58,973 nucleotides of DNA from a virus (taxonomy: Duplodnaviria; Caudoviricetes): positions 1 through 58,973 of the IMG/VR virus record IMGVR_UViG_3300007735_000765. One strand, 5' to 3'. Position numbers and translations under genes: made by a program. Shown here piece by piece: positions 29,127 through 44,427 of this stretch. The notes below the pieces were generated by a model, which saw nothing but the letters and a program-made list of their open reading frames with translations, did not search any database and was not told the DNA's origin. Numbering within the stretch: position 1 is the stretch's first letter; each line of letters starts with the position of its first letter.

Positions 29127-29183
29127 AACAGGATGCGCTTTTTTACTATTTGGAAAAGTAGTTAAAGTTGCTGAATGCATCCT
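29127..29183 (-). ncRNA. CAGCA-stem (Y-like) RNA copy 1, carrying a Trp(CCA)-type anticodon hairpin
   Basis: AGGATGC-ATTCAGCAA...GCATCCT-GTT; inner TACTT-TTCCAAA-TAGTA. Confidence 0.65.
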
Positions 29184-29196
29184 AAAAAATTTTACT

Positions 29197-29429
29197 AACT
29201 GGATGATCGAAACGGTGATTTATTTTCTGCTCTGCCCCATCCCCAGTATATCGGTTCAGTTCCCAGAGCCTAACCTAACTTGTGTCTGCGTTAGATAACA
29301 TATATGTCTTTCCATAAGTCGTCAGTTCTTTCGGAGCATTTCTGCTGAGTAGCGAACTACTCACCTTTCCACGGGTCCTTCTACTGCTGTAGAGGCTTTA
29401 GTATTGTTTTAAATTGCTGAACTCATCCA
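29197..29429 (-). ncRNA. CAGCA-stem (Y-like) RNA copy 2, long multi-hairpin cargo
   Basis: TGGATGA-GTTCAGCAA...TCATCCA-GTT; inner TGAGTAG-TTCG-CTACTCA and GAAA hairpins. Confidence 0.65.
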
Positions 29430-29437
29430 AAAAATAC

Positions 29438-29587
29438 AACAGGCTAGTTTCCTACTTTTTGATTTAAAAGAGAAATCGAAACTCTTCTCGTCCAGACTGT
29501 CGAAATACACCTTCAAAGGTTGCCCTCCAGCGCATAACGCAGTATACCCAGACACGACAAGTTTTGTTGATTTGCTGTAACTAACCT
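29438..29587 (-). ncRNA. CAGCA-stem (Y-like) RNA copy 3
   Basis: AGGTTAG-TTACAGCAA...CTAGCCT-GTT; inner GATTT-CTCTTTT-AAATC. Confidence 0.6.
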
Positions 29588-29607
29588 TTTAACTTTACAA
29601 TGTATCT

Positions 29608-29636
29608 ATTATAATACACTTTCTCGATGTTGTCTA
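29608..29636 (-). promoter_or_regulatory. Sigma70 promoter for the Y-like RNAs and DUF2828 operon
   Basis: TAGACA-17-TATAAT. Confidence 0.7.
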
Positions 29637-29665
29637 CTATTTTTTATAGTAGGTTTACCAAATTC

Positions 29666-29741
29666 TGGTGCGCGATGACAGATTCGAACTGCCGACATCC
29701 AACGAGTCAAATTGGCACTCTACCAACTGAGTTAATCGCGC
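29666..29741 (-). tRNA. tRNA-Val(GAC), with U at position 37
   Basis: Cloverleaf; loop TT-GAC-TC; CCA encoded. Confidence 0.85.
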
Positions 29742-29745
29742 ATTG

Positions 29746-29820
29746 TGGTCCGGCCACCAGGAATCGAACCTGGATTTACTGCTTAGAAGGCAGATGTTCT
29801 ATCCATTGAACTATGGCCAG
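29746..29820 (-). tRNA. tRNA-Arg(UCU)
   Basis: Loop CT-TCT-AA; CCA encoded. Confidence 0.9.
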
Positions 29821-29824
29821 AAAT

Positions 29825-30199
29825 TTATCTAACTACTCTAGCCCTTGCGGTAACCATTTCGTCTATGTTTCCTTTAATTATAACATTTGTGTAAGTATCT
29901 GTCAAGCCAGAAGCGTGATCCACTACCCTATTGTCGGGCTCGTGATATGTTCTAATACGCTCAGTGCCTGCTTGGAAACGTTCGGTGTCTTTATGAAAAT
30001 GCGCCATTACCCTTGCTAAACATACTGCATGGGCACTTCGCTTATTGTCTTCGCGACTGCGACTGCCTGTGCCATTGGCTTGAATGCCAGTGGGCTCATG
30101 TATGCATCGGCAACAGTTTTGATGCTTGTTACGGTGTTGGCCTCCTTTACCGGTGCCACTGTACCATTCATATTTAAATTGTTCGTCCGTAATTTTCAT
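29825..30199 (-). CDS. Stand-alone RF-1 (GGQ) domain peptidyl-tRNA hydrolase, ArfB/PrfH-like
   Basis: GTGKGGQHRNK, IHEPTG and ERIRTY; lacks codon-recognition domains. Confidence 0.85.
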   Translation of the reverse strand: MKITDEQFKYEWYSGTGKGGQHRNKHQNCCRCIHEPTGIQANGTGSRSREDNKRSAHAVCLARVMAHFHKDTERFQAGTERIRTYHEPDNRVVDHASGLTDTYTNVIIKGNIDEMVTARARVVR

Positions 30200-30209
30200 A
30201 TAAACTCCT

Positions 30210-30286
30210 TGGTGCCCTGGGTGGGACTCGAACCCACAAAACCTACGACCTCAACATAGTGCGTATGCCAATTCCGCCACCGGGGC
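30210..30286 (-). tRNA. tRNA-Leu(GAG), short variable loop
   Basis: Loop TT-GAG-GT; 77 nt. Confidence 0.85.
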
Positions 30287-30361
30287 TGGTCTCGCCAGTA
30301 GGAATCGAACCTACATTTATTCTTTAGGAGAGAATCGTTCTATCCATTGAACTATAGCGAG
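30287..30361 (-). tRNA. tRNA-Arg(CCU)
   Basis: Loop CT-CCT-AA. Confidence 0.9.
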
Positions 30362-30657
30362 TTATCGTTTAAAGTTTGTTGAACACGCTTAACAGTATTT
30401 AAACACACATGGTCAAAGCCATGACCCTCTTCTGTGTCAACAATAACACCTTCTAGTTCATAGAACTGGTCTCGGTTTACCTTTTTCAAACGTTGAATTT
30501 CATCTGCGGCTTCTTCCAATAAATCTGCAATACGATCAGGTGCGCCTTCTTCAACACTTTTGCGTCCGGGAATTTGCCTACGAATCTCTGCTCGCTTGCG
30601 CAAACGAAAAACTAGGCTCTGTTCACTGACAGGTAAATTGCTTTCATCTTTCATCAT
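30352..30657 (-). CDS. Hypothetical protein
   Basis: LVFRLRKRAEIRRQI...LLEEAADEI; stop codon lies inside the tRNA 5' end. Confidence 0.6.
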   Translation of the reverse strand: MMKDESNLPVSEQSLVFRLRKRAEIRRQIPGRKSVEEGAPDRIADLLEEAADEIQRLKKVNRDQFYELEGVIVDTEEGHGFDHVCLNTVKRVQQTLNDNSL

Positions 30658-30745
30658 ACTTTCCTATTAAGCACGAAGCCTTTAAAATAAATGAAGAAGG
30701 CTTTTGTGACCCTCTTCATTTCTCGCCAATAGAATTGACGGTATG

Positions 30746-31246
30746 TCACCCGATGTTCTTTCGAGCTATTGTCATTAACATTGGATCGCCTTTGGTCATA
30801 ACTTCTAACAACAATCTCTTTTCTTCTAAGTAAGTCTTGGCAAACTTTTCATCGTGTGCCATAATACTTTTAGTATTAGAGATCAAATCCGCCAACTTGA
30901 CTGTTTGGGCCGGGGCAGGTGCCATTGCAGTGTGCGCTCTGTCGATTGCTTTACGTGTGGCACGATTACCTTGTTCTGGACGACTGACGTCTGTAAGCCA
31001 TCCCACCAACTCCGCGACCGTCTCGCCAAATTCTTCTCGAATAACTTCAATTGTAACTCCCGTGTCTTCTACAACATCATGCAACCATGCCGCGGCCAAC
31101 ATTTCATCAGTGTGTGCCACAGTGCTAACAATGCTAACAACTTCGGCGGGATGGACAATGTAAGGCTCGTTGGTATACTTACGAAGTTGAGCCACTGCCG
31201 CATGTGCCGCAGTAGCAAATACTCTGGCTTTTTCTACTATTGTCAT
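30746..31246 (-). CDS. HD-domain (p)ppGpp hydrolase-like protein (SAH/Mesh1 type)
   Basis: AH..Q.RK..EPYIVHP, LHDVVED and VKLAD. Confidence 0.85.
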   Translation of the reverse strand: MTIVEKARVFATAAHAAVAQLRKYTNEPYIVHPAEVVSIVSTVAHTDEMLAAAWLHDVVEDTGVTIEVIREEFGETVAELVGWLTDVSRPEQGNRATRKAIDRAHTAMAPAPAQTVKLADLISNTKSIMAHDEKFAKTYLEEKRLLLEVMTKGDPMLMTIARKNIG

Positions 31247-31327
31247 AGTCCACTCCTTCTTATATGTATATTATACAGTAATAATGAATTTTGGGCAAAC
31301 AAAAAAATAGTACCTTAGTACTACTTG

Positions 31328-31792
31328 TTAAACATAGATAATTTCTATGAATCCTTCGTCTGTAGTTGGTTCTTCCCAGCCAGCAATCATACTGGCAATA
31401 ACTTGCTCAGGTATTTCTTTGCCCGGACGACTCCACAATCGACGCATAAGTTCTTTATGCTCCGGAGTCTTAAACACCACAGCAATGTGCTCGTAGTCGG
31501 GTAACATATTAAACTTACGAGCACGACTGTTAACGGTTGTGCTAGTTTGATCCCAAATAATATCTACACCATCGTTGCGACATTTAATCACGTGATCTGC
31601 CATTAGTTTAACCGCAATGGGCATGTATTCTGTAAAAACTTCGCTATAAGTTTTACCTGTACGGCTAGCGTAGTCTTCAACCCACGCATCAGTAGATACA
31701 ACATTAGTACCCAAAGCCCATACTTGATTTTTTATCCAAGTACTTTTGCCCGAACCGGGCACTCCGATCAATTGATAACACTTAGGCATCAT
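31328..31792 (-). CDS. P-loop kinase, polynucleotide-kinase (AAA_33)-like
   Basis: GVPGSGKSTW, STD and WDQT. Confidence 0.8.
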   Translation of the reverse strand: MMPKCYQLIGVPGSGKSTWIKNQVWALGTNVVSTDAWVEDYASRTGKTYSEVFTEYMPIAVKLMADHVIKCRNDGVDIIWDQTSTTVNSRARKFNMLPDYEHIAVVFKTPEHKELMRRLWSRPGKEIPEQVIASMIAGWEEPTTDEGFIEIIYV

Positions 31793-31798
31793 CGCTCC

Positions 31799-32341
31799 TT
31801 AGTGATGACTGCGAATTTGGCTATTTAAGGCTTCGGCAATCATACGATCTAAATTACTAACTACTCGACCTGTGGCATCGAATGCCACATCACGAGCACG
31901 ATAAGGCTCCAGGCCTGTTCTGCCACCATGTACATGTCCATAGAAATGAACAGCGCCGCGGTGCATTTGATCCCATTCGTGAATAGGATAGTGGAACATG
32001 ATTACCAGCTGACCGTTATGGTTATAACGCAAATACTGATGTACTTCCTTGAAGCAACTGCGGAACACAGGATCGTTCAACAGTTTACGGTCGTGGTTGC
32101 CTTCGACTAAAATCTTTGCACCGTTCAGACGATGCAAAATTTGTACTGCTTTGTCTGCGGGCAAGAACGCAAAGTCTCCCAAGATAAATGTTTCATCTTC
32201 GGGCTGTACGCTGGCGTTCCAGTCAGCAATCATTTGTTCACGCATGTCATCTGTGTCCTTGAACCGTGCTCTAGTCACAGGGCAGAACTTCAAAATGTTA
32301 GCATGACCAAAATGTAAATCACTGGTAATCCACTTAGTCAT
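31799..32341 (-). CDS. Calcineurin-like metallophosphoesterase
   Basis: SDLHFGH, LGD, GNHD and GHVH; probable start MTKW at 32341. Confidence 0.85.
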   Translation of the reverse strand: MTKWITSDLHFGHANILKFCPVTRARFKDTDDMREQMIADWNASVQPEDETFILGDFAFLPADKAVQILHRLNGAKILVEGNHDRKLLNDPVFRSCFKEVHQYLRYNHNGQLVIMFHYPIHEWDQMHRGAVHFYGHVHGGRTGLEPYRARDVAFDATGRVVSNLDRMIAEALNSQIRSHH

Positions 32342-32829
32342 TAAATATCTCCTTCGCGGGACTTTGGAATTACAAAGCCCCAATCTGTTACTTCACCGTT
32401 GATCGTATGCTTTTCGTTTTCGTCATACGTCCAACCCAATACTTTCATCATTTTATGCTTGACCAGCAAGTTGGGACTACGAAAAGATTCGCTGTCGTCA
32501 AACCCCAACATGATGCCAACTTCTGCCACTGCACCACTACGACACACACCAGCATGACAATGAACTACGACATTCATGCGTTGCTCCAGTGCATGTTGCA
32601 ACAGTCGAACCAGCTCTTGGGCTTGCTCGTCTGTACACTTGCACTCGTCAGGAAAGTTGTCTGTCTTTTCTGCATCCAGAAATTCAAATTGATGAACTTC
32701 ACGAAACTGGTACTTGGGTGTAGGAAACTCGTATGCAGGATCCACAATTTGAATCAGCATAGAATTAATACCCGGATTGATATGAAACCCTTGCCGAATG
32801 TCGCTCATGCTTACGTTTTGAATCCACAT
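32341..32829 (-). CDS. Cys-based (PTP/DSP-fold) phosphatase
   Basis: HCHAGVCRS (CX5R) and upstream FLD. Confidence 0.8.
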   Translation of the reverse strand: MWIQNVSMSDIRQGFHINPGINSMLIQIVDPAYEFPTPKYQFREVHQFEFLDAEKTDNFPDECKCTDEQAQELVRLLQHALEQRMNVVVHCHAGVCRSGAVAEVGIMLGFDDSESFRSPNLLVKHKMMKVLGWTYDENEKHTINGEVTDWGFVIPKSREGDI

Positions 32830-32850
32830 AAAAATTTCCTTTAATGCTGT

Positions 32851-32879
32851 ATTATAGCACTAAACGGCTATTTTGTCAA
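32851..32879 (-). promoter_or_regulatory. Sigma70 promoter
   Basis: TTGACA-17-TATAAT. Confidence 0.75.
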
Positions 32880-32881
32880 TT

Positions 32882-33135: not shown

Positions 33136-33149
33136 TGCGATCTCCTAAC

Positions 33150-33224: not shown

Positions 33225-33230
33225 ATAACT

Positions 33231-33306: not shown

Positions 33307-33317
33307 ATAAACTGCTT

Positions 33318-33528: not shown

Positions 33529-33534
33529 ACATGA

Positions 33535-34848
33535 ATGCAACAAAAAATATTTCCTATAAAAACTGCAACTGCTTGCCAACTTAAATGGAGCCACAGCACA
33601 GTATTTTTGCCTAGCCTCAAAACTGCTAGCTGTCACAGAGTAGAACAAAATTACTTTGATATCAACACATTTGATTTTCATAATACCAAAGAAAAACTAC
33701 AAGCCAGAACAGAAATGTTAGCAGGGCGTTGGCCAGGACATGGCTGTGAGCATTGTAAAAATATCGAGGATTCTGGGGGCGTCAGTGACAGAATTGTACA
33801 CTTAGATTTTCCTGGATTTAGGGCGCCACCGGAACTGGATCACGATTTACAGGCAGTGAATGTTACTCCGCGTGTATTAGAAATCTATTTTAGTAACACC
33901 TGCAACCTTAAATGCGTTTATTGTGTTCCGCAGTTCAGTAGCCAAATTAACCAAGAAAATAAAAAATTTGGTGTATTTCACAACAACGGTGTATTCATTA
34001 AAAGTGTGAACATACCCGACGAATTCAGCGCGGCCACAGAAAAAATGTTTACATGGCTGGATCAAAATTTACAAAATTTAGATAAACTTATTGTATTAGG
34101 CGGGGAACCTTTTATTCAAAAAGAAACAGCCCGCTTACTCTCGCTGATTAATACAAAAAAACTGCCCAACTTATCGCTAACTGTTTTTAGTAATTTAACT
34201 ATTGATCACAATAAATTTAAAAAATATGTAAAAACTCTCAAAGACGTCAAGCACCAAGCTAATCTAAATCAAATTAACATTGTTGCTAGTCTAGATTGCT
34301 GGGGCGATGCCGCGGAGTATGTAAGACAAGGGCTGGACTTAAAATTATTTGAACAAAACTTTTTATATTTGCTCAACGAAACAGATTTCGTCTTAAACAT
34401 AAACTCTGCACTTAGTCCTCTTACTGCGGCAGATCTCCCGGCACTGATTGAAAAGATCAATCATTGGAGTACATCAAGAACAGTATACTGGACCACGATG
34501 AAGACTGCGGGCAGGCCCTATCTTCATCCTACTATTTTTGGCAGTGAGCTATTAGATGCGGGTTTAAATCAAGCCTACGAAACATTTAACAGTCATGGAG
34601 ATCCTGAAAAAATAAAATACAAAGAATATTTTGCAGGAATCATCAGCGAAATAAAACTTAGCAAACCTAATCCCATACATCAACTTCAATTACGAACATA
34701 TTTAGAAGAATTAGATAGGCGTAGAAGCACCAAATACACTACAACATTTCCATGGATTTACCAAAGACTAAAAGTAGTGGTCGATCCTGAGGGATTCGAA
34801 CCCCCAACCGCCGATTTCGAAGACCGGAACTCTATCCAGTTGAGCTAA
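33535..34848 (+). CDS. Radical SAM protein
   Basis: CNLKCVYC and LGGEP; additional N-terminal Cys residues. Confidence 0.85.
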   Translation: MQQKIFPIKTATACQLKWSHSTVFLPSLKTASCHRVEQNYFDINTFDFHNTKEKLQARTEMLAGRWPGHGCEHCKNIEDSGGVSDRIVHLDFPGFRAPPELDHDLQAVNVTPRVLEIYFSNTCNLKCVYCVPQFSSQINQENKKFGVFHNNGVFIKSVNIPDEFSAATEKMFTWLDQNLQNLDKLIVLGGEPFIQKETARLLSLINTKKLPNLSLTVFSNLTIDHNKFKKYVKTLKDVKHQANLNQINIVASLDCWGDAAEYVRQGLDLKLFEQNFLYLLNETDFVLNINSALSPLTAADLPALIEKINHWSTSRTVYWTTMKTAGRPYLHPTIFGSELLDAGLNQAYETFNSHGDPEKIKYKEYFAGIISEIKLSKPNPIHQLQLRTYLEELDRRRSTKYTTTFPWIYQRLKVVVDPEGFEPPTADFEDRNSIQLS

Positions 34849-34854
34849 GGACCG
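34778..34854 (-). tRNA. tRNA-Arg(UCG)
   Basis: Loop CT-TCG-AA. Confidence 0.9.
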
Positions 34855-34859
34855 TTAAA

Positions 34860-35948
34860 ATGTTTCACTGTGCCGCTATACAAAAAAATATCAGAGTAGA
34901 AGGATCTGCTGTCACAGGACTGAAAATTTTGCCTTGCTGTGTTTATCAAGCAGATCAAAATTATCGCACACTCGCAGAGTACTACAGTAGCACAGAATAT
35001 CAAGAATTACAATCTACTAGCACATGGCCACGGGGATGTGGTGCATGTCGCCAGCAAGAAAATCAAAATCAAACCAGTTACAGACAGTTAGTCAATCAGT
35101 CACTGGATAATATACAGGGACGACGATTTGAAATATTCCCTAGCAATATCTGTAATCTAAAATGTGTTATGTGCAACCCTGCTAATAGCAGTGCATTTGC
35201 ACAAGAACAACAAACTATCGGAATAATCAATAACCAATACGCAAAAGAATTTGATCTCAGCAAAGAAGCGTTGGACTTAATTGACAGCAACGACGACATT
35301 GAAAGTATTAGCTTGATAGGAGGAGAATTCTTTTTATCCAAGGGTAACTTAGAAATATTAGATCTCGCTATTCAACGACAAATACCAATACGTGTTGTCA
35401 CCAATGCCACGGTAATTTTACCCGACCACTTAGCTAAATTAAAACAGTTACAGGATCTTGAATTACAGATCAGCTGTGACGGTGTTCACGAACACTATGA
35501 GTTTATGCGATATCCTGCTCGCTGGGATCGTTTCATTGCAAACAGCGAAACGTTGATACAAGAACTACCACAAGCAAAAATTAACTTTCATTTTGTTGTA
35601 CAGCCACTGAACGCAGAAAATCTTGTTCCCAGTTTAGCATTTTTAAACACACTAAAACGTCCTACACGATTTACTAATCTTGTAACACCAGAATATCTCA
35701 ATTGGTCCATACTCACTGACAGCGAGCGCCTGCGCATCGCAGACACTATGACTAAGCAACTTGCAGAGTTTAGATTAACTGAACGTCAAAAACTTCAAGT
35801 ACAAAGTCTAATAGAAACTATCAGTGGTTCCGCATATTCTGCAGAGAATCGCCAAACATTCAATCGCATAGTAGGCAAGACTATGCAACATCGCGGTGTT
35901 GATTTGGTAGTAGCGGTGGGACTCGAACCCACGATAAACACCGTATGA
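34860..35948 (+). CDS. Radical SAM protein
   Basis: CNLKCVMC, IGGE, TNAT and N-terminal PCC...CGAC. Confidence 0.85.
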   Translation: MFHCAAIQKNIRVEGSAVTGLKILPCCVYQADQNYRTLAEYYSSTEYQELQSTSTWPRGCGACRQQENQNQTSYRQLVNQSLDNIQGRRFEIFPSNICNLKCVMCNPANSSAFAQEQQTIGIINNQYAKEFDLSKEALDLIDSNDDIESISLIGGEFFLSKGNLEILDLAIQRQIPIRVVTNATVILPDHLAKLKQLQDLELQISCDGVHEHYEFMRYPARWDRFIANSETLIQELPQAKINFHFVVQPLNAENLVPSLAFLNTLKRPTRFTNLVTPEYLNWSILTDSERLRIADTMTKQLAEFRLTERQKLQVQSLIETISGSAYSAENRQTFNRIVGKTMQHRGVDLVVAVGLEPTINTV

Positions 35949-35980: not shown

Positions 35981-36108
35981 ATATAGAAACACACTGTGGC
36001 GCTTGAATCCGCGATAGCCCTTCTCTTCACGGCTGGTCCTTGCTCTGTCTAGAATTGGCAAGTATTTCAGTTGTTCCGCTGTAGCTATTCAATGTGTTTT
36101 TATATGGT
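35978..36108 (-). ncRNA. Inter-tRNA spacer RNA closed by a long ATAT..AAACAC stem (copy A)
   Basis: ACCATATAGAAACACA (35978-35993) is an inverted repeat of TGTGTTTTTATATGGT (36093-36108). Confidence 0.5.
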
Positions 36109-36191
36109 GAGTCAGGTGGGAATCGAACCCACAAGGGCAATTTGCCGCCAGATTAAAAGTCTGGTACCGCAACCTATTCGGTGTCTGACCC
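36105..36191 (-). tRNA. tRNA-Lys(UUU) with a long variable arm
   Basis: CCAGA-CTTTTAA-TCTGG; extra GGC-AAATT-GCC arm; 87 nt. Confidence 0.8.
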
Positions 36192-38371: not shown

Positions 38372-38470
38372 TGGTGCCGCCAGCAGGACTCGAACCTGCA
38401 CACTCAGGCTTATCTGGCCTGTGCTTTGGCGAGGTATAAGCTCGCTTCTTTACCATTAAGCTATGGCGGC
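38372..38470 (-). tRNA. tRNA-Ile(UAU), 99 nt, with a second anticodon-like hairpin in the variable arm
   Basis: GCGAG-CTTATAC-CTCGC; variable arm CAGGC-CAGATAA-GCCTG; normal T arm and CCA. Confidence 0.8.
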
Positions 38471-38476: not shown

Positions 38477-38590
38477 AACAGGATACCTTCGTTTGACGAA
38501 TGCTCTACCTAATGAGCTAATCTTCCATGCGGAAAATGTTGGAATCGAACCAACTACCTATCGTTTGATAGAATTTGCTGTATGTATCCT
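38477..38590 (-). ncRNA. CAGCA-stem RNA copy 4: YrlA-type circularly permuted tRNA mimic
   Basis: AGGATAC/GTATCCT stem enclosing T arm GTTGG-TTCGATT-CCAAC, closed acceptor ATTTTCC-GCAT-GGAAGAT, then D arm GCTC-ATTAGGTA-GAGC. Confidence 0.8.
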
Positions 38591-40187
38591 AAAACTTGAC
38601 TATCGGCACTATGCGCTTAATAGGCTGTGTTCTGTGCCGATAAAATTCTGTGTAATCGTATGTGAGCTTTTTAATTTTATACTCATTGATTCTTTGATCT
38701 GAGCGAGATTTCATCTCAGTCAGTGGTGGCACAGATTTACCTGAAATCCACGTTTTAATATCATTTAAACTATAACCCAAACTCACATAGTCAAACTGAG
38801 TCCATGCGCTGACTCGTTGGTCTGTAACGGATTGATTTAGTTCACAGCTTGTTTTAAGCGCCGTGAAATAATTTTCGCCGTTGTTTAAATCTTTCCAGTA
38901 GCCTACTTTGCTTCTAAAGTTTTCGTCGATAAAAGGTCTGTAAGTATACTGATGCTGGCGATTCTTATACAAATATTCTAACCGCCAAAGTTTACGCACT
39001 TCTGCATTAACTTCTGAGTCAGACATTATACTCAATCCATATCTATCAAACTCTTTGCTGAATTCGCTGGTATGAATTGTTTTTTCTTGTTTGGTAATGT
39101 ACAAAGGTTGCCAATACCAATATTCAACACCACTGGTCTGTAACCATTGGTTTTCACTGTGATAATCACTGTCATCTCCAGGTAATCCAACAATCATTGA
39201 ACAGTTTGTAGTAACATTGGGCATCTGTTCTTTCCACCACAGAATAGCATCTTTAGCACGTTGTCCAGTAAATCCTTTGCCTACTAAACGACCAGCTTCT
39301 TTGCTAAAAGTTTCTATTCCAAAGTGAATACCTTGCAGTCCCATGTTTCGTAATAATTCTGCACTGTGCGGCCGGGCCGCAATTAAATCAAGTCTGCCAT
39401 AGGCAGTAAAATTAATTTTAAATGGTAAGCTAGTAATAGCTCGCTCCAGTGTCTCTAATTTTTCAATGCTGTCATTGAATGTATCTTCATTGATAAGGTA
39501 ATTTGTTATGCCCCACTGATCGTAGTTTGTTTTTAATTCTGTGACAATAGTGTTGGGGTCACGTATGTAATCCAATTTACTTTTACCAATCAATGGGTAT
39601 GTGCAAAATTTACACTTAAAAATACAACCCCTGGCAGTTTCCATACCAAGAGTTTGCTCTGGGCGAAGAAAATCTGTGCTAAGATATTCTATGGTCAAGT
39701 CATTGGTATCCACAGGACCGTAATCGGTCAATGCGTCTATTAGATTGTCTGCCAATGGACTCCAGTGAATATCATTGCGATCAATTTTACCACGAAGATA
39801 ATCCAGTAAATGCAGTATAGCATTTTCTGCGTAACCTTCTACATAGTAGTCCACGCAAGGAATACTACGTGTTAATGTTTGATTGCCGCCTAATACTATA
39901 GGAAGATTGGGATAGCGTTGCTTAATTAGTCGTATGGTGTCGTCAAACCGCGACCTATCTAAAAATAGATTGCTACCTATACCTAAAAACAATGTTGAAT
40001 TAGATATTAACTTTGACAATAACTCAAGAAGCTCTGATTCAGACCAACTCAGGCAATAGTCAATGACTTCTATGTTATATCCGTGTTGTCTAAGGTGTGT
40101 GGCAATTTTGTGTGCGCCTGCACCTCTGTGACAAGTTATATCTAAATTGTTAAAGGTGTTGTCTGTGAGTATTACACCATGTATCAT
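38589..40187 (-). CDS. B12-binding radical SAM enzyme
   Basis: IVLGG, EGYAE, ARGCIFKCKFC, EDTF, GIET and IVGLP. Confidence 0.85.
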   Translation of the reverse strand: MIHGVILTDNTFNNLDITCHRGAGAHKIATHLRQHGYNIEVIDYCLSWSESELLELLSKLISNSTLFLGIGSNLFLDRSRFDDTIRLIKQRYPNLPIVLGGNQTLTRSIPCVDYYVEGYAENAILHLLDYLRGKIDRNDIHWSPLADNLIDALTDYGPVDTNDLTIEYLSTDFLRPEQTLGMETARGCIFKCKFCTYPLIGKSKLDYIRDPNTIVTELKTNYDQWGITNYLINEDTFNDSIEKLETLERAITSLPFKINFTAYGRLDLIAARPHSAELLRNMGLQGIHFGIETFSKEAGRLVGKGFTGQRAKDAILWWKEQMPNVTTNCSMIVGLPGDDSDYHSENQWLQTSGVEYWYWQPLYITKQEKTIHTSEFSKEFDRYGLSIMSDSEVNAEVRKLWRLEYLYKNRQHQYTYRPFIDENFRSKVGYWKDLNNGENYFTALKTSCELNQSVTDQRVSAWTQFDYVSLGYSLNDIKTWISGKSVPPLTEMKSRSDQRINEYKIKKLTYDYTEFYRHRTQPIKRIVPIVKF

Positions 40188-40816
40188 TTAGTAAAATAAG
40201 GCTCGAAAATTTCCAGTGCTCGTTCCCACGTGGGCACTTGCTCTACGGGAAATCTTACACTTATGCCTATTCTGTGTTTGTAGTCTGTAGTATATTCTAC
40301 GCTGTGCGGCCGATCGGCTCGCACCAAATACGGAGTCATAAACTCCATTTTTAATTGTTCAACTAACGTACAGCCTTCAGCGGAATTGTTTTCCCTGTGG
40401 CCATAGTGTATGCCTTGTTGACCAAACTCAAACCCATCCGTCTGACACCACTCGGTGTTTGTAGTAGACTCTGGATAGCATTCTGCTAGTGTACCAGTGT
40501 CCCACCAACTAAAATAAGTTTCGCTGGGTATCAGTTCCCAGTTTATACCAAAAGGCAGTTTAATCCAACGATTGTCTTGCCATAGTATATCACTGTGAAT
40601 CCATATGCCGGACTGTTGTTTATATTGTTCACCGAACAATGTACAAAAGCTAGGAGTTAACCCTAGCTGTTTAAAAAAATCTAACAATCGTGTATTCAAT
40701 ACAGTTTCATAGTCACGTACCATTTGCACATAACTTTGTTTTTCGCCAATGCGAATGTTTACTGCATTGCCCACAACAGGCTTTGGTAGTCCTGTTAATT
40801 GCCTATAATAGATCAT
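40184..40816 (-). CDS. Hypothetical protein, possible cupin/2OG fold
   Basis: IHSD...PHSV; probable start MIYY, 5 nt after TAAATA. Confidence 0.55.
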   Translation of the reverse strand: MIYYRQLTGLPKPVVGNAVNIRIGEKQSYVQMVRDYETVLNTRLLDFFKQLGLTPSFCTLFGEQYKQQSGIWIHSDILWQDNRWIKLPFGINWELIPSETYFSWWDTGTLAECYPESTTNTEWCQTDGFEFGQQGIHYGHRENNSAEGCTLVEQLKMEFMTPYLVRADRPHSVEYTTDYKHRIGISVRFPVEQVPTWERALEIFEPYFTK

Positions 40817-40837
40817 AAAGATATTTATAGGGCTGTT

Positions 40838-40912
40838 TGGCGTACCCTGCGGGATTCGAACCCCCACCAGCGGTTTTGGAGACCGTCATGCTGCCGTTGA
40901 CACCAAGGATAC
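40838..40912 (-). tRNA. tRNA-Trp(CCA)
   Basis: Loop CT-CCA-AA. Confidence 0.9.
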
Positions 40913-40919
40913 ATTGAAT

Positions 40920-41004
40920 AACAGGATGGGCGGTCATGGGCGGGACTCGAACCCGTCTAGCCACCTTGAAAGGGTAGTGACCTAACCCAGAAGTCCAACG
41001 CGAT
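40920..41004 (-). pseudogene. Chimeric pseudo-tRNA-Glu(UUC) fused to an orphan Y-like 3' end
   Basis: D, anticodon (CT-TTC-AA) and T arms present; acceptor strands ATCGCGT and CCATGAC do not pair; ends CATCCTGTT. Confidence 0.6.
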
Positions 41005-41010
41005 GTTTAT

Positions 41011-41102
41011 TGGTGGAAGTGGTGAGATTCGAACTCACGGACCCATTTCTGAGCCGTCGGTTTTCAAGACCGGTGCGATAAGCCAGGCTCTGCCACACTT
41101 CC
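41011..41102 (-). tRNA. tRNA-Ser(UGA)
   Basis: Loop CT-TGA-AA; long variable arm. Confidence 0.9.
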
Positions 41103-41161
41103 GAAAAAGAGAACCACAGCGTAGAATATTGCTATTCCAGTGGCTGTGGCCGTGTTTATAT

Positions 41162-41237
41162 TGGAGCGGGTGATCGGGTTCGAACCGACGACATTCACGT
41201 TGGCAACGTGATGCTCTACCAACTGAGCTACACCCGC
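41162..41237 (-). tRNA. tRNA-Gly(GCC)
   Basis: Loop TT-GCC-AA. Confidence 0.9.
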
Positions 41238-41244
41238 ATTAAAA

Positions 41245-41319
41245 TGGTGCTGGTTGTCGGATTCGAACTGACGACCTACTGCTTACAAGGCAGTTGCACT
41301 ACCACTGTGCTAAACCAGC
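41245..41319 (-). tRNA. tRNA-Thr(UGU)
   Basis: Loop CT-TGT-AA. Confidence 0.9.
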
Positions 41320-41347
41320 ATAAAATTACTTATCTATAAATATTTGT

Positions 41348-41548
41348 ATGATCAACAATATGAACGAAAGAGACCAAGAAGCCTTACAACTTCTATACAA
41401 TTTGGGCGGAGGCCGCGCTTATCGTAGTCTTCCTAGTTACACTTGCATCAAAGAATTCATACCATTGTTTGTGAGAGACAGTCAGCCCAAATTTATTGCT
41501 GACGGACTACCTCCGCAAATTGGCACCGGTGCTAGGGATCGAACCTAG
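41348..41548 (+). CDS. Small hypothetical protein
   Basis: TATAAATA 5 nt before ATG; 3' end runs antisense into tRNA-Gln. Confidence 0.45.
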   Translation: MINNMNERDQEALQLLYNLGGGRAYRSLPSYTCIKEFIPLFVRDSQPKFIADGLPPQIGTGARDRT

Positions 41549-41595
41549 AACGACAGAGTCAAAGTCTGTTGTGTTGCCAGTTACACCACACCGGA
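41521..41595 (-). tRNA. tRNA-Gln(UUG)
   Basis: Loop CT-TTG-AC. Confidence 0.9.
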
Positions 41596-41603
41596 TCAAA
41601 AAT

Positions 41604-41667
41604 AACAGGATCGTTTTTTACGGTTTAGATTAAAAGTCTAATGTATTTGATTTGCTGAACCGATCCT
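41604..41667 (-). ncRNA. CAGCA-stem RNA copy 5, carrying a Lys(UUU) anticodon hairpin
   Basis: AGGATCG-GTTCAGCAA...CGATCCT-GTT; inner TTAGA-CTTTTAA-TCTAA. Confidence 0.7.
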
Positions 41668-41674
41668 AAAAATT

Positions 41675-41758
41675 GCCATATAAAAACACACTAGAACGAC
41701 CATAGCATACAAAAAGACCTGGTAGTCAAAATGCTATGCTAGTGTGTTTTTATATGGC
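41675..41758 (-). ncRNA. Long-stem spacer RNA (copy B)
   Basis: Perfect 20-bp inverted repeat GCCATATAAAAACACACTAG plus inner CATAGCAT/ATGCTATG. Confidence 0.55.
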
Positions 41759-41833
41759 TCCGCGTGTGAGGATCGAACTCACCTAACCACTGATTAACAG
41801 TCAGGTCCCTGCACCTTGCTTGGATTTCGCGGA
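41755..41833 (-). tRNA. tRNA-Asn(GUU), atypical D arm
   Basis: Loop CT-GTT-AA. Confidence 0.75.
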
Positions 41834-41929
41834 ATAGAATTTGTCCCGTACTACGACTTTTACGCACCTGGGTCTGTGTATGCCCCGGACAGGAGTAGGG
41901 CAAAGGTGTCGTCTTCTTGCGCTAGAATT

Positions 41930-42020
41930 TGGTGGAAGACGTGGGAATCGAACCCACTGACCTGCTCATCACAAGTCTACACCTTAGCAGGGTGCTGCAT
42001 TACCGGCCTGCCCGCCTTCC
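41930..42020 (-). tRNA. tRNA-Ser(GCU)
   Basis: Loop CT-GCT-AA; long variable arm. Confidence 0.85.
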
Positions 42021-42022
42021 AA

Positions 42023-42241
42023 TTATGATCGAATAATTTCTGTGGGATTCCAAGGGGAGATCAATGCTACATATTCATCTGCGCCTGCGGCGTCATTGAA
42101 GGTATAGACAGGACTTCCATCCTCTTCAAATTCCATTTTTCTTAATTTTCCTTGATTTTGGGCCCGGGCGCAAAAATCAACAAGTGCTTGACTTTGCTCG
42201 GCAGTGTGATCTTCTGCCCAAATTACTTTAACTGTTACCAT
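42023..42241 (-). CDS. Small hypothetical protein
   Basis: 72 aa; AAGGA RBS. Confidence 0.55.
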   Translation of the reverse strand: MVTVKVIWAEDHTAEQSQALVDFCARAQNQGKLRKMEFEEDGSPVYTFNDAAGADEYVALISPWNPTEIIRS

Positions 42242-42274
42242 ATAAATTTCCTTAAAGGTTATATAGTATATTTA

Positions 42275-42348
42275 TGGTACCCCCGGGAGGTAACGCTCCT
42301 CCGACTGCCGGTTATCAGCCGACTGTTATACTTTTTAACTAAAGGGGC
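42275..42348 (-). tRNA. tRNA-Ile(GAU), non-canonical D/T loops
   Basis: Loop CT-GAT-AA; T-loop AGCGTTA; D-loop lacks GG. Confidence 0.75.
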
Positions 42349-42422
42349 AATAAAGGAAGCCACGGTTGCAGGACCTAGTGGCTGTTGCCAGCGAAGTATC
42401 CAAGCGATGTGGCTTCAAAATT

Positions 42423-42501
42423 TGGCGACCCGTACCGGATTCGAACCGGTGTCCTCCGCCGTGACAGGGCGGCGCAATAGGCCAGACTATGCTAACGAGC
42501 C
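42423..42501 (-). tRNA. tRNA-Asp(GUC)
   Basis: Loop CT-GTC-AC. Confidence 0.9.
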
Positions 42502-42505
42502 AAAT

Positions 42506-42592
42506 TGGTGGGTGTTGATGGTAACGCTCCACGTGCCTTGACTTCACTACCTTCAGGAACGGATTTACAGTCCGCCGTAGTGGGCAACACCC
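42506..42592 (-). tRNA. tRNA-Tyr(GUA)-like, lacking a D arm
   Basis: Acceptor GGGTGTT/AACACCC-ACCA; GCGGA-CTGTAAA-TCCGT; T-loop AGCGTTA. Confidence 0.65.
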
Positions 42593-42598
42593 TTAAAT

Positions 42599-42673
42599 TG
42601 GAGGCCAGGGTAGGAGTTAAACCTACCTATACCGGGTTTGCAATCCAGCGCATAATCGCTCTGCCACCTGGCC
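42599..42673 (-). tRNA. tRNA-Cys(GCA)
   Basis: Loop TT-GCA-AA; U73; T-loop TTTAACT. Confidence 0.8.
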
Positions 42674-42680
42674 AAATATT

Positions 42681-42756
42681 TGGTACTCCGTGGGGGAATC
42701 GAACCCCTCCTTACCGACGTGAAAGGCCGGTGTCCTAACCGATAGACGAACGGAGC
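42681..42756 (-). tRNA. tRNA-Glu(UUC)
   Basis: Loop CT-TTC-AC. Confidence 0.9.
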
Positions 42757-42818
42757 AGAATAGTGTGATACACAAACGAGGTAGACTAGTACCCCTTGTT
42801 CAAGTCTGTGTATCAATT

Positions 42819-42902
42819 TGGTGCGAGTGGCCGGAGTCGAACCGGCACGCCCTAAGACGGGAGATTTTAAGTCTCCTGTGGCTACCATTACACCACACTC
42901 GC
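42819..42902 (-). tRNA. tRNA-Leu(UAA)
   Basis: Loop CT-TAA-AA. Confidence 0.9.
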
Positions 42903-42907
42903 ATATT

Positions 42908-43140
42908 CTCTATATGTAAACACTTTACGGGAACTCCAACACGATATAGCAAGTCTGCTATCCCCCAGTACCGTCTACTGGTTCGGTGTTTTCATCATTA
43001 CTGCCTAACTGCCCGTCACGCTCAGTCACTTACGTACTCATGCGCTTCTTGTACTACTAGTAGAGCCAACCCGTCGGTTGGTGATCCTCTCTAGTAGATA
43101 CCTAACGGATCAGGTAACCCTAATGTGTTTACATATAGAG
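42908..43140 (-). ncRNA. Long-stem spacer RNA (copy C, about 230 nt)
   Basis: Perfect 16-bp inverted repeat CTCTATATGTAAACAC; GC-richer interior with several hairpins. Confidence 0.55.
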
Positions 43141-43175
43141 CCTGTAACTTGTACAGGTCTACATGACAAATTAAA

Positions 43176-43252
43176 TTTTTAAAGAACTTGTTCATCAGTT
43201 AGTTTCCTAACTGTCTAAGTTGTATTGTAGCAGAAGTCCAATTTATTGTCTA
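43176..43252 (-). promoter_or_regulatory. Sigma70 promoter followed by a boxB-like hairpin and boxA-like sequence
   Basis: TAGACA-17-TACAAT; CAGTTAG-GAAA-CTAACTG; GTTCTTTAAAAA. Confidence 0.6.
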
Positions 43253-43318
43253 TACCCCGCCAATTTGAACGGATATCTAATACTTAGGTTTGCAAAACGG
43301 GCACCAATAAATATCTGC

Positions 43319-44290
43319 ATGCAATTAGAACTACTTGACTATCAATACCTTCCAAACTGGAATTTAGGCGAATTAACTACGGCGTTCAAACAACGCCACG
43401 ACATCAATCCTAAATGGCCTTTGGTCTGCACCACACTTAGCAGTTTCAGCAGTGAAGCTATTCACTCAGTTTGGGCAGACTTTACACATGGTAAACGTCG
43501 TGGTCGGCCACGTGAAATACGTAGCAGTACCATTGATAGTGCATTCACTTATATTGCCGAACAACTAGGTCTCACAGGCTTTGTGCAAAACGTGCAAGGT
43601 GCCTGTGCTGGCAGTTTATATGCATTTTACAATGCCGCATTGATCAGTCAAGCCACCCAACAACCAGTGGTTGTATGGTGCGATGACAATTACATTCATC
43701 CGTACGGTGCATGGCACTTCAACAGCTTCGGCGCACTGGACCAGGATACAGGCTTGCCTTTTGATAGTACATCTAAAGGATTCAAATTGGGCGATGGTGC
43801 CGCGCTGTACTTGGTCAAGCATCCTAGTGTAAAGTACACCTCAGATGTTCGCGCATTCATTCAAAACTTTCATTTCTACACCAATCCCGAATTAGTAACT
43901 AATCCTGGCTCAGCAGAAGATATCATTCGAAACCTTAGTTCTATTGATTTTAAAAGTGTTGAACTATGGAATGCACATGCCACAGGAACCCCTGTGGGCG
44001 ATCCTGTAGAATACGAATTCTTTAGCAAAACTATTAAACAAGACTGTCCAATCATTGGCTACAAGGGCTATGTTGGACATACACTCAGTGCCTGCGGTGC
44101 TGTAGAAATAGCATTGGCTCTACAAGACAAAGCACGTAACGAACTTCGTCCTAATGTATTAGCAGGCCCCGCTATCGCCAACGACGACAGGATTATCACC
44201 GAGCCCACTGCATTTCCATACACTCGTATGTTAAAAGCCAGCATGGGCTTTGGCGGTAAAATTGCTGTAGTTGAAATAGACTTGTATTAA
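43319..44290 (+). CDS. Beta-ketoacyl synthase (FabB/FabF-like), divergent
   Basis: GACAGS, NAHATGTP.GD and KGYVGHTL (Cys-His-His triad) plus GFGG; start 5 nt after TAAATA. Confidence 0.8.
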   Translation: MQLELLDYQYLPNWNLGELTTAFKQRHDINPKWPLVCTTLSSFSSEAIHSVWADFTHGKRRGRPREIRSSTIDSAFTYIAEQLGLTGFVQNVQGACAGSLYAFYNAALISQATQQPVVVWCDDNYIHPYGAWHFNSFGALDQDTGLPFDSTSKGFKLGDGAALYLVKHPSVKYTSDVRAFIQNFHFYTNPELVTNPGSAEDIIRNLSSIDFKSVELWNAHATGTPVGDPVEYEFFSKTIKQDCPIIGYKGYVGHTLSACGAVEIALALQDKARNELRPNVLAGPAIANDDRIITEPTAFPYTRMLKASMGFGGKIAVVEIDLY

Positions 44291-44291
44291 C

Positions 44292-44369
44292 TGGAGCACC
44301 GAGTAGGATTCGAACCTACGGTTTTACGGATTTGCAATCCGTTGCATTGGGCCACTCTGCCACCGGTGC
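44292..44369 (-). tRNA. tRNA-Cys(GCA), second copy
   Basis: Loop TT-GCA-AA; U73. Confidence 0.9.
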
Positions 44370-44373
44370 ATAT

Positions 44374-44427
44374 AACAGGATACGCTTTTTCTTTATACCA
44401 AAAAGATTTAAGTGCTGAAAGTATCCT
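44374..44427 (-). ncRNA. CAGCA-stem RNA copy 6, carrying a Thr(GGU) anticodon hairpin
   Basis: AGGATAC-TTTCAGCAC...GTATCCT-GTT; inner TCTTT-TTGGTAT-AAAGA. Confidence 0.7.

What the first reader, a model, noticed from the sequence alone, without database searches (positions are those of the whole stretch)
29144..44406. The short Y-like RNAs each display a different tRNA anticodon stem-loop: candidate decoys for anticodon nucleases
Seen: each short element has a 5+7+5 hairpin at an equivalent position, shortly before an A-tract and the 3' stem. They are TTAGA-CTTTTAA-TCTAA (41625-41641, the exact Lys-UUU loop), TCTTT-TTGGTAT-AAAGA (44390-44406, Thr-GGU) and TACTT-TTCCAAA-TAGTA (29144-29160, Trp-CCA, U.U closing pair). 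A weaker case is GATTT-CTCTTTT-AAATC (29461-29477, Lys-CUU but with U37). All have pyrimidine-32 and U33, and the three best have A37. Established: anti-phage anticodon nucleases such as PrrC and PARIS AriB cut tRNA-Lys(UUU). Inference: these are protein-stabilised anticodon baits that titrate tRNases, or alternatively modification enzymes or synthetases. AT-rich hairpins can arise by chance, so cross-genome support is needed.
Basis: partly seen in the sequence, partly recalled or inferred. Interest (0 to 1): 0.88.

Follow-up and report, generated by a model that had tools for sequence, protein, structure and literature searches.

The report
Phage RNAs displaying tRNA anticodon arms
A giant freshwater phage encodes small RNAs that carry tRNA parts, one of them a near-copy of the lysine-tRNA anticodon hairpin, on a shared handle beside a Ro60-like protein gene; they may be baits in the phage-host fight over tRNAs, but that role is untested.

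Summary
All four hairpins exist on the minus strand at the stated coordinates. The window holds exactly three short "handle" RNAs (S1, S2, S3).

- **S2 (Lys-UUU):** strongly supported. Twenty homologues keep a covarying 5-bp stem and a 7-nt loop that is fixed except at position 35 (U, C or G).
- **S3 (GGU):** ambiguous. It belongs to a UGG-loop group whose loop size varies and which looks D-loop-like.
- **S1 (CCA):** weak. Only 8 of 31 distinct short RNAs at its position have a canonical anticodon-type loop; loops there run 6-11 nt.
- **Fourth case:** rejected. It overlaps a conserved T-arm-like hairpin.

Of 91 distinct short homologues, 47 carry a 5-bp or longer stem with a YU-NNN-R-N loop, against about 1 in shuffles. 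Larger relatives are whole tRNA-like bodies without a free acceptor end.

The neighbouring DUF2828 protein is predicted to fold like Ro60. The same handle flanks this gene in four of the seven distant cultured phages examined. Anticodon-arm mimicry is therefore real for a major subclass. The nuclease-decoy role is plausible but untested.

This scan has already noted the same system on other DNA: 320 notes in at least 261 genomes. I found no published description.

The parts
41604..41670 (-). S2: short handle RNA carrying a tRNA-Lys(UUU)-type anticodon arm. The hairpin is at 41625-41641, with an extra 3-bp helix UAC/GUA around it.
   Evidence: R1 hit at 63.4 bits. In the 20-sequence alignment A2 all three helices covary and 98.6% of cells are paired. 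The inner 13 of 17 hairpin bases equal the phage's own tRNA-Lys(UUU) arm, CCAGA-CUUUUAA-UCUGG.
44374..44430 (-). S3: short handle RNA lying between tRNA-Ala and tRNA-Cys. Hairpin UCUUU-UUGGUAU-AAAGA at 44390-44406. It can be read as anticodon-like (GGU) or as D-loop-like (UUGGUA).
   Evidence: R1 hit at 58.8 bits. The orthologue in G001 keeps UUGGUAU on a different stem. Relatives sharing its handle have UGG loops of 5-8 nt.
29127..29186 (-). S1: short handle RNA, core ending 30 nt upstream of the DUF2828 start codon. Hairpin UACU(U)-UUCCAAA-(U)AGUA at 29144-29160.
   Evidence: R1 hit at 65.7 bits. Of the distinct short RNAs at the same position in protein-anchored loci, 8 of 31 are canonical and loops run 6-11 nt.
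29442..29586 (-). L2: 145-nt handle RNA.
   Evidence: Element finder and orthologue sequences; sequence read.
29201..29428 (-). L1: 228-nt handle RNA with a complex cargo that does not resemble tRNA.
38477..38590 (-). M1: YrlA-like permuted tRNA mimic with a T arm, a closed acceptor stem and a D arm. A tetraloop-capped hairpin (loop AAAC) sits where relatives carry an anticodon arm.
   Evidence: Sequence parse. Rfam YrlA RF02553 scores 34.8 bits over the full model, below the gathering score of 69.
27679..29100 (-). Gene for a Ro60-like protein carrying Pfam DUF2828 and DUF7788.
   Evidence: Pfam. AlphaFold2 model with pLDDT 90.3 and pTM 0.90. The best PDB matches are Deinococcus Rsr (2nvo) and Xenopus Ro (1yvr); these are the only two with E<=0.001.
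29608..29636 (-). Promoter-like site (UAGACA-17-UAUAAU, 11 of 12 positions) upstream of L2-L1-S1-DUF2828.
   Evidence: The number of such sites is not above shuffles; only the position is suggestive.
27546..27567 (-). Terminator-like hairpin downstream of the DUF2828 gene.

Best explanation
**Shown here.** S1, S2 and S3 belong to a family of phage RNAs with one terminal "handle": UUUUA-GGNNNN-N3-CAGCAA ... A-tract-NNNNCC-UGUU. The handle travels with a Ro60-like DUF2828 protein. Its variable cargo is made of tRNA parts: anticodon arms, UGG-loop (D-arm-like) hairpins, T arms, or whole tRNA bodies whose acceptor end is closed or replaced by the handle.

**Inferred.**
- These RNAs have no free acceptor end to charge. 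I take them to be co-transcribed with the tRNA array and released by tRNA-processing enzymes. I take the Ro60-like protein to bind them through the handle.
- The cargo competes with real tRNAs for proteins that read the anticodon arm.
- The most likely targets are host tRNA-cutting defence nucleases that prefer U-rich or NNU/NNA anticodons. The bait would bind them, be cut in place of tRNA, or tether them to the particle. Single changes at position 35 would retarget a bait.

**My odds.**
- Partner RNAs of the DUF2828 protein: about 0.8.
- S2-type hairpins are selected anticodon-arm mimics: about 0.85.
- Bait for defence nucleases: about 0.4.
For: **Handle linked to the gene.** An element lies within 700 nt upstream of DUF2828 in 62 of 72 protein-anchored loci. 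The same CAGCAA handle flanks the gene in Felix O1, Aeromonas LAh_8, Listeria A511 and Campylobacter NCTC12673.

**Ro60-like fold.**

**Anticodon-arm form.**
- 47 of 91 distinct short RNAs against 1.0 in shuffles.
- In A2 the stem covaries at 3 of 5 pairs. Five of the 7 loop columns are invariant. Position 34 is U in 19 of 20, and position 35 is U 9, C 7, G 4.
- A34 occurs in 1 of 24 distinct loops.

**tRNA context.** The same hairpins sit at the anticodon-arm position of acceptor-less (89-98 nt) and permuted (109-116 nt) tRNA-like elements. M1 matches Rfam YrlA below threshold.

**Different triplets per genome.** 18 of 20 loci. LAh_8 carries UUU, CAU, GAU-like and GCU loops.

**Theme of the neighbourhood.**
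- An RF-1 domain, an HD_4 hydrolase, an AAA_33 kinase and a DSP phosphatase lie next to the locus.
- RNA ligases lie near DUF2828 in GAP32, LAh_8 and A511.

**Published plausibility.**
- PrrC reads mainly the anticodon stem-loop (PMC1484252, one passage).
- Cas13a cuts tRNAs with U-rich anticodons and also small loops that mimic an anticodon stem-loop (PMC11042736, passages).
- AriB targets Lys-UUU and Thr-UGU and needs U36-A-A-U (PMC12409363, abstract and sections 22-23). UUU and UGU are among the three commonest bait triplets, UGU tied with UCU, and S2 carries U36-A-A-U-C.
- A Ro60-like protein of phage Bas63 counters a defence system (PMC11482910, passage).
Against: - There is no experiment, no known host and no identified nuclease.
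- AriB also needs base-specific D-loop contacts. A tRNA given only the cleavage site was not cut, so a bare anticodon arm may not bind it.
- Catalytic nucleases are hard to titrate with stoichiometric baits.
- 44 of 91 distinct short RNAs are not anticodon-like. S1 and S3 are ambiguous.
- None of Felix O1's four elements has a canonical anticodon-type loop. The defence countered by Bas63 gp130 (Ppl) is proposed to degrade DNA.
- Position 36 is only U or A: 0 of 24 baits have G or C, against 347 of 803 true tRNAs. That fits the t6A and i6A modification classes (recalled knowledge) as well as it fits nuclease targets.
- No handle elements were found beside DUF2828 in Ci1, nt-1 or GAP32.
Confidence: 0.4

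Rival explanations
1. Adaptor or tether. As the Deinococcus Y RNA tethers Ro60 to PNPase, the tRNA-part cargo recruits host tRNA-binding enzymes to the DUF2828 particle. Candidates are enzymes that modify A37 or position 34, synthetases, RNase P, the CCA-adding enzyme, or repair ligases. The aim would be to hijack, regulate or sequester them, not to block immunity.
For: - Position 36 is restricted to U or A and is followed by A37-A38. This matches the contexts of t6A and i6A modification (recalled knowledge).
- The Thermus phage Ro60 and its Y-like RNAs bind host PNPase (PMC12135203, abstract passage).
- RNA ligase genes lie near DUF2828.
Against: - It does not explain why many triplets are displayed within one genome.
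- It does not explain why position 35 alone varies in S2-type RNAs.
- No modification enzyme is known to need sequestering by a phage.
Confidence: 0.25
2. Structure only. The hairpins are inherited remnants of a tRNA-derived ancestor, kept as a stable U-turn loop that the DUF2828 protein or RNA folding needs. The triplet would have no meaning.
For: - Loop size and sequence are irregular in S1-type and UGG-type short RNAs.
- Felix O1 elements lack anticodon-like loops.
- The valid-anticodon test has no power.
- The stems are 22% G+C against 60% in real tRNAs.
Against: - Strict conservation of positions 32, 33, 36, 37 and 38, with free variation at 35, across 20 diverged S2-type RNAs.
- A34 is avoided in an AT-rich setting.
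- Whole tRNA-like relatives keep full anticodon arms.
- The Lys-type arms differ from true tRNA-Lys arms at only 2 of 10 stem positions.
Confidence: 0.2
3. Translation modulators. Free anticodon arms would enter the ribosomal decoding site, or pair with mRNA or tRNA loops, to alter the decoding of particular codons.
For: Only the anticodon-like form itself. That isolated anticodon stem-loops bind 30S subunits in vitro is recalled knowledge.
Against: - There is no delivery factor and no acceptor end.
- The phages already encode 39-45 tRNAs in the same stretch, including the same anticodons.
Confidence: 0.05
4. Chance AT-rich hairpins with no selected structure.
For: Weak thermodynamics. The region is AT-rich.
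Against: Enrichment of 47 against 1.0. Compensatory changes in the stem. The S2-type arm is conserved in an Aeromonas phage whose DUF2828 protein is only 41% identical.
Confidence: 0.02

Closest known systems
Bacterial and phage Y RNAs of the YrlA type with Ro60/Rsr (Chen et al. 2014, PMC4201824; Rfam RF02553)
   Same: - They are encoded beside a Ro60-fold protein.
- The 5' and 3' ends pair into a terminal helix.
- The cargo mimics tRNA. M1 matches RF02553 over the full model, though below threshold.
- RNA-repair genes lie nearby.
   Different: - The protein belongs to DUF2828, not Pfam TROVE. It has no sequence match in the PDB.
- The handle carries a CAGCAA motif.
- The short members carry only an anticodon arm. 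YrlA lacks that part: it mimics the D arm, T arm and acceptor stem (passages).
- There are many copies with different triplets, dispersed through a tRNA array.
Deinococcus radiodurans Yrn1
   Same: It can be drawn with an "anticodon arm" on a 5-bp stem (PMC4201824, passage).
   Different: Its loop has 6 nt, not 7, and there is a single RNA. Here the loops are canonical 7-nt C-U-N-N-N-A-A and come in several identities.
Phage-encoded tRNA variants that defeat tRNA-cutting defences (T5 tRNAs against PARIS, PMC12409363; T5 tRNA-Tyr against a retron, bioRxiv 10.1101/2023.03.15.532788, search listing only)
   Same: These are phage RNAs in tRNA arrays that answer attack on the anticodon arm. The identities overlap (Lys-UUU, Thr-UGU).
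   Different: Those are complete, chargeable tRNAs that replace the cut host tRNA. The RNAs here have no acceptor end and could act only by binding or competition.
Dictyostelium Class I RNAs (Rfam RF01414; PMC7919456)
   Same: - They are 42-65 nt long.
- A short stem joins the ends.
- A conserved motif ending in ACAGCAA follows the 5' strand, and the interior is variable.
- S1 and five LAh_8 elements give RF01414 as their best non-tRNA Rfam match, at 21-29.6 bits.
   Different: - All scores are below the gathering score of 41.5.
- The paper reports the class as unique to dictyostelids and bound by an RRM protein (passages and section 15).
- No link to DUF2828 was tested here.

Membership tests
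Y RNA (Ro60 partner RNA) | Encoded next to a Ro60-fold protein gene | tested here: met
   The DUF2828 model matches Rsr (2nvo) and Ro (1yvr) over its full length. Elements lie within 700 nt upstream of the gene in 62 of 72 loci, and beside it in four cultured phages.
Y RNA (Ro60 partner RNA) | The 5' and 3' ends form a conserved helix | tested here: met
   A terminal 7-bp helix. Three pairs show changes on both sides and 100% of cells are paired.
Y RNA (Ro60 partner RNA) | Physically bound by the Ro60-like protein | not testable with these tools
   Needs immunoprecipitation or a binding assay.
YrlA (Rfam RF02553) | Reaches the Rfam gathering score | tested here: not met
   M1 scores 34.8 bits against a gathering score of 69. 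There was no RF02553 hit in 29000-29700, where S1 lies. S2 and S3 gave none at the gathering threshold.
YrlA (Rfam RF02553) | tRNA-like domain with T arm, D arm and closed acceptor stem | tested here: not met
   S1-S3 carry a single hairpin only. M1 does have these arms.
tRNA anticodon stem-loop (form) | 5-bp stem, 7-nt loop, Y32, U33, R37, kept in homologues | tested here: met
   S2: 20 of 20 homologues. As a class: 47 of 91.
tRNA anticodon stem-loop (form) | The same features for S3 | tested here: inconclusive
   S3 itself and its G001 orthologue fit. Relatives sharing its handle have UGG loops of 5-8 nt.
tRNA anticodon stem-loop (form) | The same features for S1 | tested here: not met
   S1 has four pairs plus U.U. 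Among RNAs at its position, 8 of 31 are canonical and loops run 6-11 nt.
Dictyostelium Class I RNA (RF01414) | Reaches the Rfam gathering score | tested here: not met
   21-29.6 bits against 41.5.
Anti-defence decoy for anticodon nucleases | Binds, is cut by, or protects against a tRNA-cutting defence nuclease | not testable with these tools
   Only circumstantial: the triplet spectrum and the published specificities.

The most novel reading that the evidence does not exclude
A Ro60-like phage particle carries an exchangeable library of tRNA parts on one RNA handle. The parts are anticodon arms of Lys, Thr, Arg, Ile, Ser, Tyr, Cys and Phe types, D-arm-like and T-arm hairpins, and whole tRNAs without a free acceptor end. 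The particle uses them as retargetable baits that neutralise tRNA-cutting immune nucleases, and a single change at position 35 switches the bait's identity. The same handle motif in Dictyostelium Class I RNAs would then point to an old partnership between DUF2828-type proteins and this RNA handle, reaching from phages to eukaryotes.
Probability: 0.25. Interest if true: 0.9.

Novelty: new variant of a known kind. Interest (0 to 1): 0.72.

Why it matters
Phages are known to answer tRNA-cutting defences with spare tRNAs and with repair enzymes. A third answer would be non-chargeable tRNA-part baits on a Ro60-like particle.

That would give the widespread DUF2828 phage proteins and their RNAs a function. 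The family is large: 702 phage records match in one collection, and 6060 cluster representatives in another.

It would also give bacterial Y RNAs a concrete role model, and supply natural, compact inhibitors or reporters for anticodon nucleases.

The idea is directly testable in cultured phages that carry the same elements: Aeromonas LAh_8, Listeria A511 and Felix O1-like phages.

Tried and rejected
- **DNA search of cultured phages.** The 651-nt RNA cluster found nothing in the phage collection.
- **Sequence search of the PDB.** The DUF2828 protein gave no hit. Only the fold comparison linked it to Ro60.
- **Single-sequence folding.** It gave no significant stability, so the case rests on comparison between genomes.
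- **Valid-anticodon test.** Dropped. With positions 34 and 36 as observed, 14 of 16 triplets are valid anyway. Observed: 22 of 24.
Rejected in favour of a T-arm-like hairpin.
- **Distant phages without the handle.** My pattern finder and model R1 found no handle elements in the stretches around DUF2828 of Citrobacter Ci1, Vibrio nt-1 and Cronobacter GAP32. They may lie elsewhere or have diverged.
- **Expression.** One freshwater metatranscriptome run (X1) held 7% of the sampled words.
  - Its contigs cover the DUF2828 gene, 29068-29247 (with S1; 0 differences) and 29299-29612.
  - Contigs cannot show transcription, RNA ends or level, and DNA may be present in the library, so I draw no conclusion.
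  - Parts without cover mean nothing.
- **Dictyostelium lead.** The paper that lists the four Class I RNA-binding proteins is not in the library. I did not test whether dictyostelids have DUF2828.
- **Protein-complex prediction.** Not used, because no partner protein is known.
- **Supplements.** They are closed. Chen et al. 2014, Supplemental Table S2 (phage YrlA list), could show whether any of these phage RNAs were already catalogued.
- **Literature searches.**
  - Searches for a prior description. None described handle RNAs with anticodon arms.
  - Searches on the Dictyostelium lead.

Full report
**Setting.** The window is a fragment of a jumbo phage; CheckV puts it at 17% of a genome. Its relatives are 338-364 kb.

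All tRNA genes lie on the minus strand: ARAGORN finds 31 and Rfam 34.

The gene at 27679-29100 (minus) carries Pfam DUF2828 and DUF7788. I predicted its structure with AlphaFold2 from a 67-sequence alignment. The model has pLDDT 90.3 and pTM 0.90. Its best matches among solved structures are Deinococcus Rsr (2nvo, E = 8.7e-8) and Xenopus Ro60 (1yvr, E = 2.2e-7). Both align over about 510-520 columns at TM about 0.45, and they are the only two of 276 matches with E<=0.001. All other matches cover the vWA domain alone. A sequence search of the PDB found nothing.

**The RNA family.** Six minus-strand elements in the window share one terminal handle: UUUUA-GGNNNN-N3-CAGCA(A) ... A-tract-NNNNCC-UGUU.

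| Element | Core coordinates | Length |
|---|---|---|
| S1 | 29131-29182 | 52 nt |
| L1 | 29201-29428 | 228 nt |
| L2 | 29442-29586 | 145 nt |
| M1 | 38481-38589 | 109 nt |
| S2 | 41608-41666 | 59 nt |
| S3 | 44378-44426 | 49 nt |

- I built a covariance model of the handle from 34 diverse short elements. It finds exactly S1, S2 and S3 in the window, at 58.8-65.7 bits. The next hit, at 17.4 bits, is the 5' part of M1.
- A promoter-like site at 29636-29608 and a terminator-like hairpin at 27567-27546 bracket L2-L1-S1-DUF2828.
- S3 lies within 8 nt of a tRNA on each side, and S2 ends about 8 nt before tRNA-Gln. That suggests co-transcription with the tRNA array; this is an inference.

**Cross-genome samples.** I used two samples from IMG/VR.
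In 131 loci plus the window, my finder gave 232 elements, 214 of them distinct, in 85 sources.
- The second was anchored on the protein alone: 80 loci at 65-85% identity. Of the 72 loci with at least 700 nt upstream, 62 have an element within 700 nt upstream of the gene.

The handle also flanks DUF2828 genes in distant cultured phages:
- Felix O1: four elements in the tRNA array.
- Aeromonas LAh_8: nine model hits.
- Listeria A511: three elements.
- Campylobacter NCTC12673: two elements.

It was not found in the stretches examined from Ci1, nt-1 and GAP32.

**Are the hairpins anticodon-like?** Among the 91 distinct short elements (66 nt or less), the lowest-energy hairpin has a 7-nt loop in 49. 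A hairpin with at least 5 bp and a 7-nt YU-NNN-R-N loop is present in 47. In 300 dinucleotide shuffles the mean was 1.0 and the maximum 5. The sequences are related, so this shows enrichment, not a probability.

- The commonest loops are CUUUUAA (16), CUUGUAA (6), CUUCUAA (6) and CUUGAAA (4).
- Among 24 distinct bait arms the composition is as follows.
  - Position 32 is C 20, U 4, and position 33 is always U.
  - Position 34 is U 13, G 9, C 1, A 1; position 35 is any base.
  - Position 36 is only U (16) or A (8); position 37 is always A; position 38 is A in 19.
- In the 803 distinct anticodon arms of the 1263 true tRNAs in the same loci, position 36 is G or C in 347.
- Bait stems are 22% G+C, against 60% in the true tRNAs.

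**S2.** Twenty S2-type elements align cleanly. Three helices are supported, with 98.6% of cells paired against 24-42% in the slid controls. Seven of 15 pairs show changes on both sides, three of them in the 5-bp hairpin stem. One lies in an outer 3-bp helix, where A-U occurs 16 times and G-C 4 times.

The loop is invariant except at two positions. Position 35 is U 9, C 7, G 4. Position 34 is G in one sequence.

S2's inner 13 of 17 bases equal the phage's own tRNA-Lys(UUU) arm, with the two outer pairs changed on both sides. Lys-type baits elsewhere differ from true tRNA-Lys arms at only 2 of 10 stem positions. An S2-type arm with the same flanks occurs in Aeromonas phage LAh_8, whose DUF2828 protein is 41% identical.

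**S3.** The closest complete relative (G001) keeps UUGGUAU on a shifted stem. But elements with the same handle type carry UUGGAAU, CUGGAAA, AUGGA, UGGUAU and UUUUGGCU. In my classification of the 91 short RNAs, S3 is one of 5 "anticodon-form with UGG". A further 12 have UGG loops of other sizes.

The D-arm position of the acceptor-less tRNA-like elements carries loops such as AUGGU and AUUGGUU. From recalled knowledge of the tRNA D-loop, UUGGUA is its usual core. S3 may therefore be a D-arm mimic rather than a Thr-GGU arm.

**S1.** Among the 31 distinct short elements that lie 21-43 nt upstream of DUF2828, loops range from 6 to 11 nt. Cores such as CAUAA and CCAAA recur, and only 8 are canonical. 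The CCA reading in the window is not secure.

**The weak case.** It overlaps a hairpin with a UUUCGA loop whose stem covaries among orthologues, so I reject it.

**Larger relatives.** Two architectures recur among mid-size elements.
- Acceptor-less form, 89-98 nt: handle, D-arm-like hairpin, anticodon arm, T arm.
- Permuted form, 109-116 nt: handle, anticodon arm, variable region, T arm, closed acceptor stem, D arm.

Orthologous permuted elements differ at position 35: CUGAAAA, CUGCAAA, CUGUAAA. An anticodon-form hairpin is present in 27 of 79 mid-size elements.

M1 in the window is the permuted form with a tetraloop in place of the anticodon loop. It matches Rfam YrlA over the full model at 34.8 bits, below the gathering score of 69. 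These relatives tie the short hairpins to tRNA anticodon arms and tie the family to Y RNAs.

**Within genomes.** In 18 of 20 loci with two or more anticodon-form elements, all triplets differ. The fetched tRNA regions of three complete relatives hold 6, 8 and 6 elements beside 39, 45 and 40 tRNAs. Bait triplets are often also present in true tRNAs of the same locus.

**Function.** Nothing here tests function.

The context is tRNA damage and repair.
- An RF-1 domain protein, an HD_4 hydrolase, an AAA_33 kinase and a DSP-type phosphatase lie next to the locus.
- RNA ligases sit near DUF2828 in GAP32, LAh_8 and A511.

Published work makes a bait role plausible.
- PrrC reads mainly the anticodon stem-loop (PMC1484252, one passage).
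- Cas13a prefers U-rich anticodons and also cuts small loops that mimic an anticodon stem-loop (PMC11042736, passages).
- AriB targets Lys-UUU and Thr-UGU around U36-A-A-U (PMC12409363, abstract and sections 22-23).
- The Ro60-like gp130 of Bas63 counters a defence system (PMC11482910, passage).

Several points weigh against it.
- AriB also needs D-loop contacts.
- Baits must compete with abundant tRNA for a catalytic enzyme.
- Half of the short RNAs are not anticodon-like.
- The U/A restriction at position 36 fits modification-enzyme contexts equally well (recalled knowledge).

I put the bait-for-nuclease mechanism at about 0.4, an enzyme-adaptor role at 0.25, and structure-only at 0.2.

**Known or new.** Y RNAs that mimic tRNA are known (PMC4201824, abstract and passages). 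A phage Ro60 with Y-like RNAs has been characterised (PMC12135203, abstract passage).

I found no paper on DUF2828-linked handle RNAs or on free anticodon arms displayed on them. The searches were made; supplements were closed.

This scan has met the same system repeatedly on other DNA, and its follow-up notes are broadly similar to my reading: 320 notes in at least 261 genomes. One note on a mycobacteriophage preferred "partner RNAs, not decoys".

I class the finding as a new variant of a known kind.

Noticed in passing
window 29127-29186 (S1); L140 3472-4928: The handle RNAs give Dictyostelium Class I RNA (RF01414) as their best non-tRNA Rfam match, at 21-29.6 bits against a gathering score of 41.5. 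Shared features are a short terminal stem, a motif ending in ACAGCAA, an A-rich 3' part, and CUG after the stem. The paper on Class I RNAs calls them unique to dictyostelids. DUF2828 occurs in eukaryotes according to the papers listed.
   Followed up: partly
window 38375-38470 (minus): A 96-nt tRNA is found by Rfam (59.5 bits) but not by ARAGORN. It has an anticodon arm with loop CUUAUAC (UAU) and a second hairpin with loop CAGAUAA. Rfam takes the second hairpin as the anticodon arm and skips the first as a 25-nt insertion.
   Followed up: partly
91 distinct short elements; e.g. L084 5934-5985, L042 10362-10407: Seventeen short handle RNAs carry UGG loops of 5-8 nt on A/U stems. These resemble the D-arm-like hairpins of the acceptor-less tRNA-like elements. 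Isolated T-arm cargo also occurs (72-76 nt elements, e.g. L005 2207-2282). The family seems to display single tRNA arms of all three kinds.
   Followed up: partly
window 29825-32829: An RF-1 domain protein, an HD_4 hydrolase, an AAA_33 P-loop kinase and a DSP-type phosphatase are interleaved with tRNAs next to the Ro60-like locus. RNA ligase genes lie near DUF2828 in GAP32, LAh_8 and A511.
   Followed up: partly
L140 (Aeromonas phage LAh_8) 4872-4988: The annotated DUF2828 coding sequence starts at 4896 and overlaps two handle RNAs (4872-4928, 4937-4988). The protein match begins at 5001, so the annotated start is probably too far upstream.
   Followed up: no
L137 (Citrobacter phage Ci1) 7870-8101: Downstream of its DUF2828 gene lies a tRNA-like gene with an insertion containing CUACAGCAA in the anticodon region. 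It is followed by an annotated 114-nt "tRNA-OTHER" pseudogene. This may be a different arrangement of the same motif.
   Followed up: no
window 33535-35948 (+) and 38589-40187 (minus): Three radical-SAM proteins, one with a B12-binding domain, are embedded in the tRNA region. A ketoacyl-synthase-like gene lies at 43220-44290.
   Followed up: no
window 36105-36191 (minus): The phage's own tRNA-Lys(UUU) is 87 nt long, unusually long for this tRNA. I did not examine the extra region.
   Followed up: no
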